Shown one piece after another: positions 1-229 of a stretch of DNA of 229 bases (positions within the stretch are counted from its first letter, which is position 1; each line of letters begins with the position of its first letter). Both the position numbers and the translations under genes were made by a program. The notes beneath the pieces are model-generated. The model saw only the letters and a list, made by a program, of their open reading frames with translations, searched no databases and was not told where the DNA came from. Source of the DNA: Escherichia coli (lineage in GTDB: Bacteria; Pseudomonadota; Gammaproteobacteria; Enterobacterales; Enterobacteriaceae); the NCBI RefSeq assembly GCF_003334385.1, contig NZ_QOWN01000226.1; one strand, 5' to 3'.

Positions 1-32
1 TAGTCACAAAAAGAAGAAAGTCAAATAATCAA

Positions 33-62
33 ATTGTGCTTAACTGTTTACATCAGCACAAT
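33..62. repeat. Perfect 8-bp inverted repeat ATTGTGCT-N14-AGCACAAT; candidate operator or RNA stem-loop, function unknown
   Basis: Read directly: 33-40 ATTGTGCT is the exact reverse complement of 55-62 AGCACAAT, with a 14-nt spacer at 41-54. I estimate chance occurrence of such a perfect 8-mer pair within about 20 nt in a window this size at under 10%. The stem has only 3 G:C pairs of 8. Confidence 0.55.
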
Positions 63-65
63 CTG

Positions 66-229
66 ATGACCATTGAAGGACGCACTAAATTATTTTCAGC
101 AACCCCTCAGTCTACGAAAATTCTGTATTTGATAATTGTTTTATTTGCTCTATTTTTATGCAGCCATTCTGTTGCTTATAAAAAAGCACCACTATCCGCG
201 CCCTCATCTCAATATCTTTGTCGCCGGAT
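66..229 (+). CDS. Hypothetical small protein, N-terminal 54 codons, 3' end beyond the window; single hydrophobic segment (possible signal peptide or membrane anchor). Start is uncertain: the frame is open from position 3, so the gene may begin upstream of the window.
   Basis: Frame 3 has no stop across 3-229. Using the window base composition I estimate roughly a 1% chance per frame of 75 stop-free codons, an approximation. ATG at 66-68 translates as MTIEGRTKLFSATPQSTK-ILYLIIVLFALFLC-SHSVAYKKAPLSAPSSQYLCRR. Third-position GC is the lowest of the three codon positions (about 28% versus 41% and 46%), as expected for coding sequence in AT-rich DNA. Against: no Shine-Dalgarno motif in the 15 nt before the ATG, the ATG lies in a possible stem, and the hydrophobicity could simply reflect the T-rich tract at 121-180. 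Confidence 0.35.
   Translation, partial: MTIEGRTKLFSATPQSTKILYLIIVLFALFLCSHSVAYKKAPLSAPSSQYLCRR
112..229 (-). CDS. Alternative model (excludes the + strand CDS): C-terminal 38 codons of a hypothetical protein on the - strand, stop TAG at complement of 112-114
   Basis: Minus-strand frame is open from the window edge to TAG (complement of 112-114), translating as ...SGDKDIEMRARIVVLFYKQQNGCIKIEQIKQLSNTEFS*. First codon positions are purine-rich (about 63%) and the - strand is the purine-rich, G>C strand. The stop is followed about 50 nt later by the 33-62 hairpin and a T-rich tract. Against: third-position GC (about 42%) is not the lowest position, and a 38-codon open stretch is only weakly significant (roughly 4% by composition). 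Confidence 0.2.
   Translation of the reverse strand, partial: SGDKDIEMRARIVVLFYKQQNGCIKIEQIKQLSNTEFS

What the first reader, a model, noticed from the sequence alone, without database searches (positions are those of the whole stretch)
1..229. Strand ambiguity: antisense reading gives a gene 3' end plus a terminator-like hairpin and T-tract
On the - strand the open frame ends at TAG (complement of 112-114). About 50 nt downstream, the 33-62 inverted repeat is immediately followed (complement of 1-32) by TTGATTATTTGACTTTCTTCTTTTTGTG, which is T/C-rich. Hairpin plus U-tract is the layout of an intrinsic terminator, although this stem is weak (3 G:C of 8, 14-nt loop). This model and the + strand CDS cannot both be true, and which is real changes the meaning of every other feature here.
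Basis: partly seen in the sequence, partly recalled or inferred. Interest (0 to 1): 0.35.

Follow-up and report, generated by a model that had tools for sequence, protein, structure and literature searches.

The report
Non-coding control region upstream of eib
The window is non-coding spacer DNA from an E. coli prophage, lying upstream of an immunoglobulin-binding adhesin gene (eib); it encodes no protein on either strand, and its "terminator-like" hairpin is a strongly conserved inverted repeat next to a probable CRP (catabolite regulator) binding site.

Summary
The window sits in the 681-683-nt spacer between a tail-fibre-assembly-like gene and an eib adhesin gene of lambdoid E. coli prophages. 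Both flanking genes are on the window's - strand.

- **Neither strand codes.** The - strand ORF is only 31 aa. It is lost or remodelled in relatives, and the changes seen in it among nine copies are all nonsynonymous. The + frame-3 ORF is broken by 2-, 11- and 114-116-nt indels in 7 of 9 copies and has no homologues outside this element.
- **The hairpin is real.** It has 13-bp arms (28-40/55-67) and is rarer than chance. It is invariant, loop included, in 51 unique copies.
- **It is not a classical terminator.** The stem is AU-rich and the loop is 14 nt. The U/C tract exists only in this lineage.
- **The tract runs into a CRP-type palindrome.** A perfect TGTGA-N6-TCACA straddles the window's left edge. 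CRP-like sites occur 260-277 nt upstream of the eib start in every eib lineage examined, and 113-116 nt from a conserved -10-like motif.

Best reading: this is the distal part of the eib control region. What the hairpin does is not established. The case is ordinary and modestly interesting.

The parts
1..229 (-). Non-coding DNA: the distal part of the spacer between a tail-fibre-assembly-like gene (DUF4376 / orf-191A) and eib. The sense orientation of the locus is the window's - strand. Window position 1 lies 264 nt upstream of the eib ATG. Position 229 lies about 190 nt downstream of the upstream gene's stop.
   Evidence: no annotated feature under the match in RefSeq, and the same flanking genes in every copy; no conserved ORF and no protein homology.
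28..67 (-). Inverted repeat / hairpin. The arms are 55-67 (ATCAGATTGTGCT on the - strand) and 28-40 (AGCACAATTTGAT). The loop is 41-54.
   Evidence: -: 13-nt arms, 92% complementary.
- -17 to -19 kcal/mol, z about -3; a G.U pair on the - strand only.
- 17 of 2000 shuffles reach this.
- no variable site in 24-67 among 51 unique copies (P = 0.0035).
40..48 (-). Loop motif AACAGTTAA (- strand). It is shared with the eib upstream lineages D-G, where it forms part of the palindrome AACTGAACAGTT(AA).
   Evidence: sequences aligned on the CRP-like site.
9..27 (-). U/C-rich tract TATTTGACTTTCTTCTTTT between the hairpin and the CRP-like site. It is specific to this lineage and tolerates changes at 22-23 (TTTGAC to TTGGAC or TTTAAC).
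   Evidence: Lineages E, F and G have only about 13 nt here and no U-tract.
1..8 (.). Left part of a perfect CRP-type palindrome TGTGA-CTAACT-TCACA (L001 5993-6008). On the + strand, window 4-8 is TCACA and window 1-3 is spacer. The other 8 nt lie just outside the window.
   Evidence: -: 10/10 core match; chance about 0.001 per 700 nt.
- 76 of 77 unique eib upstream sequences carry a site of at least 8/10, 260.5-276.5 nt from the ATG.
- 113-116 nt from a conserved TAnnGTA(A/C)G motif; polymorphisms fall only in the N6 spacer (Fisher P = 4.7e-5).
67..77 (-). 11-nt unit TTCAATGGTCA immediately 5' of the hairpin. It is present in 1, 2 or 3 tandem copies in different prophages. Position 68 is a common C/T polymorphism that keeps a G.U pair in the extended - strand stem.
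113..128 (-). 16-mer ATACAGAATTTTCGTA, which never varies over positions 113-127; position 128 varies in one copy. A second copy lies 176-177 nt upstream in the copies that carry the insertion.
112..207 (-). 31-aa ORF (MRARIVVLFYKQQNGCIKIEQIKQLSNTEFS), judged not to be a gene.
   Evidence: -: 41 codons from stop to stop.
- absent in L006/L007; its N-terminus is replaced by the 114-nt insertion; the substitutions seen among the nine copies are I to R, L to S and G to D, none synonymous.
- no family match.
3..229 (+). Open frame 3, part of a 119-aa TTG ORF in L001, judged not to be a gene.
   Evidence: -: broken in 7 of 9 copies.
- indels of 2, 11 and 114-116 nt; the internal ATG at 65-67 becomes ATA in many copies.
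- the only hits are near-identical E. coli 'hypothetical protein, partial' entries from short contigs.
- no PHROG, NCBIfam or Pfam match.
194..196 (.). Junction where many copies carry an extra 114-116 nt, with GAT microhomology.
   Evidence: (matches in two pieces).
129..176 (.). Block with two divergent haplotypes: 17 sites differ in about 22-24 of 51 copies, with a 2-nt indel at 185-186.

Best explanation
The window is non-coding on both strands. It is the distal part of the upstream control region of a prophage eib gene. Eib proteins are YadA-type trimeric autotransporters that bind immunoglobulins. The window reads in the sense direction on its - strand.

**CRP-type operator.** The T/C-rich tract ends in a perfect CRP-type operator, TGTGA-N6-TCACA, centred at the window's left edge. 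I infer that cAMP-CRP binds there and helps activate eib. The site sits at a fixed distance of 113-116 nt from a conserved -10-like TAnnGT element. That element lies just before the 5' stem-loop annotated in AF151091.

**Hairpin.** The 13-bp inverted repeat directly upstream is a separate cis-element under purifying selection, loop included. It is most likely a recognition site for a regulator, or an RNA hairpin in read-through transcripts. It is not a classical intrinsic terminator.

**Shown versus inferred**
- Shown: absence of coding, genomic context, conservation patterns, and the position and substitution pattern of the palindrome.
- Inferred: CRP binding, which promoter the site serves, and any role for the hairpin.
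For: **Context**
- 71 places in 27 of 5426 complete E. coli genomes, and 8 phage records including P-EibA. Every copy examined lies between a DUF4376/orf-191A gene and a YadA-C-terminal (eib) gene, both on the - strand.

**No coding**
-.

**CRP-type site**
- 10/10 core match; chance is about 0.001 per 700 nt.
- CRP-like palindromes (8-10 of 10) lie 259.5-276.5 nt from the ATG in seven upstream lineages that otherwise share little sequence, and in 76 of 77 unique sequences.
- The distance to the TAnnGTA(A/C)G motif is 113-116 nt in all of them. This holds even where the ATG distance shifts by 12 nt.
- Within-lineage polymorphisms hit 9 of 24 spacer positions and 0 of 40 pentamer positions (P = 4.7e-5).
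- Eib levels were highest in LB and lower in two media containing 1-2% glucose (PMC5450701).

**Hairpin**
- Rarer than chance and stable.
- No variable site across 24-67 in 51 unique copies, against 14 variable sites elsewhere in 1-127.
- The loop motif AACAGTTAA is shared with other lineages, whose outer stems differ. Between lineages E and F one pair changes C-G to U-A, and there are G.U pairs valid only on the sense strand.
Against: - There is no experimental evidence for CRP binding or for any transcript end.
- A centre at about -126 from the inferred start is far for direct CRP activation, and the inferred start is itself only a motif.
- The D-lineage site matches only 8/10 and can also be read as TGAGA-N4-TCTCA.
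- eibG with only 168 bp of upstream DNA on a multicopy plasmid was used successfully for complementation and EibG production (bioRxiv 10.64898/2025.12.25.695649). The window is therefore dispensable in that setting.
- The copies are very similar, so some of the invariance may reflect recent spread or gene conversion.
- The spacing between the loop motif and the CRP-like site differs by 18 nt between lineage A and lineages D-G. That argues against a rigid two-protein geometry.
- The cross-lineage stem covariation rests on a few hand-aligned sequences. The automatic alignment failed.
Confidence: 0.6

Rival explanations
1. The hairpin plus U/C tract is a weak, non-canonical intrinsic terminator or pause site on the - strand. 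It would stop transcripts reading out of the tail-fibre genes before they reach the eib promoter, insulating eib in the lysogen.
For: - The - strand is the sense strand.
- No canonical sense-strand terminator lies between the upstream gene and eib; the GC-rich hairpins there carry their T-tracts on the other strand.
- With the loop limit relaxed to 14 nt, this is the only sense-strand hit.
- The extended fold (-19 kcal/mol) ends directly before UUCUUCUUUUU.
- G.U pairs and the C/T polymorphism at 68 are compatible only with - strand RNA.
Against: - The stem has 4 G:C pairs of 13, an AU-rich base and a 14-nt loop. The standard scan rejects it.
- 6% of shuffles give a relaxed hit.
- The eibA terminator in the same locus is canonical.
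- The U/C tract is absent in lineages E-G, where the hairpin-like region abuts the CRP-like site.
- The loop is invariant, which a terminator does not need.
- The tract tolerates T to G and G to A changes.
- From general knowledge of lambdoid phages: late transcription is Q-antiterminated and would ignore such a terminator.
Confidence: 0.15
2. The conservation is historical rather than functional. The block spread recently with eib prophages and is homogenised by recombination between the several copies in a genome. On this view the hairpin has no role.
For: - The element is confined to 27 of 5426 genomes, with a median of 3 copies each, at 90-99.6% identity.
- The window sequence is missing from other eib lineages.
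- It is dispensable for plasmid complementation.
Against: - Variable sites are not spread evenly. None falls in 24-67, while 14 fall in the rest of 1-127, and variation starts exactly at the stem's edge.
- The loop motif is shared across divergent lineages.
Confidence: 0.15
3. A small non-coding RNA is made from the - strand. It would start near the invariant 16-mer (window about 128) and end at the hairpin and U-tract, giving about 110-125 nt.
For: - Invariant blocks at 112-127, 82-100 and 24-67 are followed by a U-rich tract.
- The hairpin is more stable as - strand RNA.
Against: - No sigma-70-like promoter is found on the - strand in or just above the window.
- The candidate -10 positions lie in the block that differs between haplotypes.
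- There is no Rfam match.
- The terminator is non-canonical.
Confidence: 0.07
4. The + strand frame-3 ORF, or its internal MTIEGRTKLF... version with a hydrophobic stretch, encodes a small protein.
For: - The frame is open through the whole window and reaches 119 aa in L001.
- Gene callers have predicted it on short contigs.
Against: - It is broken in 7 of 9 copies by indels that are not multiples of three.
- The ATG at 65-67 becomes ATA in 12 of 51 unique copies.
- No homologues exist outside this DNA element and no family matches.
- It is antisense to all neighbouring genes, and RefSeq annotates nothing there.
Confidence: 0.02

Closest known systems
CRP (cAMP receptor protein) operator sites of E. 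coli, consensus TGTGA-N6-TCACA
   Same: - Perfect 10/10 core, with A/T-rich flanks.
- One perfect and one imperfect half-site in the sister lineages.
- Substitutions are confined to the N6 spacer.
- Expression is lower in glucose media.
   Different: - Binding has not been tested.
- The centre is about 126 nt upstream of the only conserved -10-like motif. That is farther than the classical -41.5 and -61.5 positions. Distal sites such as acs P2 CRP II at -122.5 are known (recalled from memory, not checked here).
- The promoter served by the site is not identified.
Intrinsic (Rho-independent) terminators, for example the eibA terminator annotated in AF151091 (L002 4505-4533)
   Same: A hairpin followed by a U-rich tract, on the strand of the neighbouring genes.
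   Different: - AU-rich stem with 4 G:C pairs of 13.
- 14-nt invariant loop.
- Interrupted U-tract that is specific to this lineage.
- The eibA terminator has an 11-bp GC-rich stem, a 9-nt loop and eight U.
Lambdoid-phage 'moron' cassettes: an extra gene with its own promoter and terminator, inserted after the tail-fibre genes (concept recalled from memory)
   Same: - eib lies after the lom / tail-fibre / assembly genes.
- It has its own conserved upstream region and a canonical downstream terminator.
- The conserved block begins inside the spacer rather than at the upstream gene.
   Different: - The upstream region is unusually long, at least 300 nt conserved in layout across lineages.
- It carries a CRP-like site.
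- The window's own sequence is present in only one eib lineage.
Stem-loop annotated upstream of eibA in GenBank AF151091 (record 3777-3814)
   Same: - It is another AT-rich inverted repeat with a long loop in the same spacer: 12 bp with a 16-nt loop.
- It is also conserved.
   Different: - It lies 104-141 nt from the ATG, outside the window.
- It sits directly after the -10-like motif, so it is probably the 5' end of the mRNA.
- The window's hairpin was not annotated by the depositors.

Membership tests
Intrinsic terminator | G+C-rich stem, especially at its base next to the U-tract | tested here: not met
   4 G:C pairs of 13. The base of the stem is A-U, U-A, C-G, A-U, G.U.
Intrinsic terminator | Short loop (3-8 nt) | tested here: not met
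   The loop is 14 nt, and the standard scan finds no terminator in the window.
Intrinsic terminator | U-rich tract directly after the stem | tested here: inconclusive
   TATTTGAC follows the core stem, giving 5 T of 8 only from offset 2. UUCUUCUU follows the extended stem. The tract is absent in sister lineages.
Intrinsic terminator | Lies downstream of a gene on the same strand and coincides with a transcript 3' end | not testable with these tools
   The hairpin begins 353 nt after the stop of the upstream tail-fibre-assembly-like gene. The 31-aa ORF just upstream is not a gene. No transcript data are available.
CRP binding site | Palindrome TGTGA-N6-TCACA | tested here: met
   10/10 at L001 5993-6008. 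About 0.001 of shuffled 700-nt sequences reach this.
CRP binding site | Conserved as a site: half-sites kept and spacer free, at a fixed position in diverged relatives | tested here: met
   - Present in 76 of 77 unique upstream sequences.
- 0 of 40 pentamer positions vary against 9 of 24 spacer positions (P = 4.7e-5).
- 113-116 nt from the TAnnGT motif.
CRP binding site | Centred at a standard activating position relative to a mapped transcription start | tested here: inconclusive
   No start site has been mapped. The site lies about -126 from the start inferred from the conserved -10-like motif.
CRP binding site | cAMP-CRP binds, and expression depends on crp/cya | not testable with these tools
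   The only support is indirect: lower Eib levels in glucose-containing media.
Protein-coding gene (either strand) | Reading frame kept in relatives, with mostly synonymous change | tested here: not met
   The + ORF is broken in 7 of 9 copies. The - ORF is lost or remodelled, and the changes seen in it among nine copies are all nonsynonymous.
Protein-coding gene (either strand) | Homologues or family membership beyond the same DNA element | tested here: not met
   No PHROG, NCBIfam or Pfam match. The 5.8-billion-protein search returned only near-identical E. coli fragments.
Known RNA family (Rfam) | Match to a covariance model at or near the gathering score | tested here: not met
   The best hit in the window scores 19.8 bits against a gathering score of 60. 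Nothing has E <= 1 in the long form of the spacer.

The most novel reading that the evidence does not exclude
The invariant hairpin (loop motif AACAGTTAA) next to the CRP-like site is the cis-element through which eib prophage genes are switched on. It could be the target of the IbrAB activator, whose mode of action is, to my knowledge, uncharacterised. Alternatively, it could be an RNA element that modulates read-through from the phage late operon into eib. Either way, it would define a previously undescribed regulatory module for prophage-borne adhesins.
Probability: 0.12. Interest if true: 0.5.

Novelty: new member of a known kind. Interest (0 to 1): 0.25.

Why it matters
For genome annotation, the result settles that nothing in this window should be called a gene on either strand.

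For biology, Eib proteins contribute to serum resistance, immunoglobulin binding and chain-like adherence in commensal and Shiga-toxin-producing E. coli. How their expression is controlled is poorly understood. The published conditions are static culture, stationary phase and complex medium, plus an IbrAB dependence that I recall from Sandt et al. 2002 but could not check. A conserved CRP-type operator and an invariant neighbouring dyad give concrete, testable cis-elements for that control. The scope is narrow: one prophage cargo gene family, present in 0.5% of complete E. coli genomes.

Tried and rejected
- **Rfam.** Scans of the window and of the long-form spacer found nothing meaningful.
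- **Plasmids.** No match.
- **Phage collection.** Only eib prophages matched, even with the whole spacer as query. The sole exception was a 71.7% match of the proximal 168 nt in phage GER2.
- **Protein families.** PHROG, NCBIfam and Pfam gave nothing for four candidate peptides.
- **Large protein search.** A search with the + ORF returned only the same element.
- **Literature.** Sandt & Hill 2000 (Infect Immun 68:2205) was not available by DOI or PMC id. Searches found no paper on eib promoters, CRP or IbrAB mechanism.
- **Cross-lineage structure.** Automatic alignment and RNAalifold of the hairpin region misaligned lineage A and predicted no pairs. The cross-lineage stem comparison is therefore hand-made and only suggestive.
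- **Other consensus sites.** By eye I compared the hairpin and tract with IHF (WATCAANNNNTTR), FNR (TTGAT-N4-ATCAA), LexA, boxA and ops consensus sequences. None fitted, or the match fell in a non-conserved haplotype.
- **Other copies of the arm.** The hairpin arm AGCACAAT occurs only once more in the 12-kb locus, inside a gene.
- **+ strand promoters.** The sites at window 1-29 and 129-156 were not pursued. The first overlaps the CRP-like site at a non-standard distance. The second lies in the variable block.

Full report
**1. What the window is**

The 229-nt window (36% G+C) matches 71 places in 27 of 5426 complete E. coli genomes at 90-99.6% identity. All matches are chromosomal, with a median of three per genome, and none carries an annotated feature. 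It also matches 8 phage records, including prophage P-EibA (AF151091), and no plasmid.

In every copy I opened, the window lies inside a 681-806-nt spacer. On one side is a tail-fibre-assembly-like gene (orf-191A / DUF4376). On the other is an eib gene, annotated as "YadA C-terminal domain-containing protein" or "immunoglobulin-binding protein EibA". Both genes, and the lom and J genes further upstream, are on the window's - strand. Window position 1 is 264 nt upstream of the eib ATG. Position 229 is about 190 nt downstream of the stop of the upstream gene. The - strand is therefore the sense orientation of the locus, but the window is intergenic.

**2. Checking the observation**

- The - strand ORF does end at TAG (complement of 112-114).
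- The 33-62 repeat is the core of a longer inverted repeat. Its arms are 28-40 and 55-67: 13 nt, 12 of them complementary, with a 14-nt loop.
- Only 17 of 2000 dinucleotide shuffles contain an equally good repeat.
- As - strand RNA it folds at -17 to -19 kcal/mol (z about -3). The mismatch becomes a G.U pair. As + strand RNA the mismatch is A.C and the fold is weaker.
- The T/C-rich tract follows as described.

**3. Neither strand codes**

*The - strand ORF*
- It is 31 aa from its ATG and 41 codons from stop to stop, so it cannot be the end of a longer gene.
- Among nine copies it is missing in two (a 2-nt deletion).
- In the copies with a 114-nt insertion, its first 14 codons are replaced by unrelated sequence.
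- The substitutions seen in it among these nine copies (I to R, L to S, G to D) are all nonsynonymous.

*The + strand frame-3 ORF*
- It reaches 119 aa in the best-matching genome.
- It is interrupted in 7 of 9 copies by a 2-nt deletion, an 11-nt duplication, another 2-nt deletion or the 114-116-nt insertion.
- Its internal ATG (65-67) is ATA in 12 of 51 unique copies.
- A search of 5.8 billion proteins returned nine clusters. All are near-identical E. coli "hypothetical protein, partial" calls on contigs of 638-1719 nt, with differing lengths.
- PHROG, NCBIfam and Pfam gave nothing.

That test is negative, but the - strand "gene" fails as well.

**4. The T/C tract ends in a CRP-type operator**

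Reading the - strand past the window's left edge gives ...CTTCTTTT**TGTGA**CTAACT**TCACA**ATTAAAG. This is a perfect TGTGA-N6-TCACA palindrome at L001 5993-6008. Its left pentamer is window 8-4. A 10/10 match arises in about 0.1% of shuffled 700-nt upstream regions, and a match of at least 9/10 in about 2%.

I then collected eib-type loci in two ways:
- by protein similarity from viral contigs;
- by a motif next to the start codon from metagenomes.

The second route is independent of the window sequence. Many of these loci share no detectable similarity with the window. Even so, 76 of 77 unique upstream sequences carry a CRP-like palindrome (8-10 of 10) centred 260.5-276.5 nt from the ATG.

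| Lineage | Palindrome |
|---|---|
| A | TGTGA-CTAACT-TCACA |
| B | TGTGG-TGCTTA-TCACA |
| C | TGTGA-CGCATA-TCAAA |
| D | TGAGA-TTTTTC-TCATA |
| E/F | TGTGA-TGTTGC/TATTGA-TCAGA |
| G | TGTAA-TTTTGT-TCACA |

(Sequences.)

Within lineages, polymorphisms fall on 9 of 24 spacer positions and on 0 of 40 pentamer positions (Fisher P = 4.7e-5). The centre lies 113-116 nt upstream of a conserved TAnnGTA(A/C)G motif (TATAGT, TACAGT or TAATGT) in every lineage. This includes lineage B, where the ATG distance is 12 nt longer. This is the signature of a transcription-factor site, and the sequence is that of CRP.

Indirect physiological support comes from PMC5450701. Eib proteins were most abundant in LB and reduced in the two media containing 1-2% glucose. 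The authors did not interpret this as catabolite repression, and I found no paper linking eib to CRP.

**5. The hairpin**

*Conservation.* In 51 unique lineage-A upstream sequences, retrieved by a motif about 250 nt away, window 24-67 has no variable site. Fourteen sites vary elsewhere in 1-127. Variation resumes exactly at position 68 and at 22-23 (P = 0.0035 for the 40-nt hairpin). The loop is as invariant as the stem.

*Comparison with other lineages.* The loop contains AACAGTTAA. This motif recurs at the corresponding place in lineages D-G as AACTGAACAGTT(AA). In lineages E and F the motif is enclosed by a different outer stem: AATATCAT/ATGATATT in E and AATATTGT/ATAATGTT in F. These differ by one C-G to U-A double change and two G.U pairs valid only on the sense strand. 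This comparison is hand-aligned and based on few sequences, because the automatic alignment failed.

*Is it a terminator?* It fails the usual definition:
- 4 G:C pairs of 13, an AU-rich base and a 14-nt loop;
- the true eibA terminator 1.3 kb downstream is GACGGCAGGCA...UGCCUGCCG followed by eight U;
- the U/C tract is an insertion specific to lineage A, while in E-G the hairpin-like region abuts the CRP-like site with about 13 nt between;
- the tract tolerates changes.

In the terminator's favour:
- it is the only sense-strand hairpin-plus-T element in the spacer when the loop limit is relaxed, although 6% of shuffles give one;
- the three GC-rich hairpins after the upstream gene have their T-tracts on the opposite strand.

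From general knowledge of lambda, those opposite-strand terminators probably stop leftward b-region transcription, and Q-modified polymerase would ignore any of them.

I therefore rate "weak terminator or pause" at about 15%. I prefer "conserved dyad cis-element of the eib control region", with the binder or RNA role unknown.

**6. How the region probably works**

This section is inference. Reading in the sense direction, the elements are:
1. the upstream gene's stop;
2. opposite-strand terminators;
3. a variable block, with an optional 114-116-nt insert;
4. the invariant 16-mer ATACAGAATTTTCGTA;
5. one to three 11-nt repeats;
6. the hairpin;
7. the U/C tract;
8. the CRP-like site;
9. about 114 nt of spacer;
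10. the -10-like TAnnGT motif;
11. the annotated stem-loop, which probably forms the 5' end of the mRNA;
12. the leader;
13. eib.

cAMP-CRP would link eib expression to carbon status. The hairpin element may add a second input. A construct with only 168 bp of upstream DNA on a multicopy plasmid was used successfully for complementation and EibG production (bioRxiv 10.64898/2025.12.25.695649). The distal region is therefore modulatory at most in that setting, and vector-driven transcription cannot be excluded there.

**7. Comparison with what is known, and verdict**

This is an ordinary kind of object: the upstream regulatory DNA of a prophage cargo ("moron") gene, with a probable CRP operator. 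I could not find the specific elements described.

Interest is low to modest.

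Noticed in passing
L001 5747-5824 (- strand), outside the window: A 25-aa upstream ORF (MRAARHQIFFIYPMLNCFICIQIIL) has an AGGAG Shine-Dalgarno sequence 8 nt before its ATG and ends 10 nt before the eib ATG. One copy (L009) differs by two synonymous changes (TGT to TGC, CAG to CAA). The ORF is not kept in lineage C. The only sigma-70-like - strand promoter found by the scan (TTGAAC-17-GATAAT, 5782-5754) lies inside it.
   Followed up: partly
L001 5881-5886 and 5840-5877 (- strand): A -10-like hexamer TAnnGT (TATAGT / TACAGT / TAATGT, once TATGGT) is conserved in all eib lineages about 147-160 nt from the ATG. 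The stem-loop annotated in AF151091 follows it directly. The arms of that stem-loop differ between lineages while keeping much of the pairing (A: GGAAATTCCGAA/TTCGGAATTTCT; D: ATAAATCCTAAA/TTTGGGATTTAT). It is probably the eib promoter and a 5'-terminal mRNA hairpin.
   Followed up: partly
L001 6306-6327 and 6390-6409; L003 2967-2984, 3007-3032, 3096-3113: Two to three GC-rich terminator-like hairpins lie between the upstream gene and the window. All have their T-tracts on the window's + strand, opposite to the flanking genes (2-3 found against 0.6 expected). Lineages B and G show the same orientation. They may be relics of terminators for leftward transcription of the phage b region.
   Followed up: partly
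Insertion at window 194-196; for example L003 2786-2899: About half of the copies carry an extra 114-116 nt. The insert contains a 9-bp hairpin (ATGCAATAC-AGAATTTTC-GTATTGCAT) and a second copy of the 16-mer ATACAGAATTTTCGTA, 176-177 nt from the first. The junction has only GAT microhomology. In PhiR5_1 a 41-aa 'hypothetical protein' is annotated across it.
   Followed up: partly
Window 67-77 (- strand TTCAATGGTCA): This 11-nt unit occurs once, twice or three times in tandem in different prophages (L099 has three). Each extra copy shifts everything upstream of the hairpin by about one helical turn.
   Followed up: no
Window 129-176, plus the 2-nt indel at 185-186: Two sharply different haplotypes (17 differing sites) coexist within otherwise near-identical copies, which suggests recombination between diverged eib prophages.
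   Followed up: no
L001 about 5762-5771 (- strand TTTGTATACA): The palindrome TGTATACA and its surrounding motif TTTGTATACARA-N6-7-ANAGGRTAT, directly before the eib start codon, are conserved in all eib lineages. Used as a search pattern, the motif retrieved 85 metagenome contigs.
   Followed up: partly
L018 about 2188-2197; L022/L024, about 30-40 nt upstream of their CRP-like sites: Lineages B and C lack the hairpin. They share AATGCATYGAWAAAAAA upstream of the CRP-like site. AATGCATC resembles the CytR octamer (AATGCAAC on the complementary strand; recalled from memory). L018 also has a second CRP-like site 90 nt further upstream.
   Followed up: no
L007 2586-3283: An IS1 transposase is inserted next to the truncated tail-fibre-assembly-like gene in strain JNEC-KY203.
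   Followed up: no
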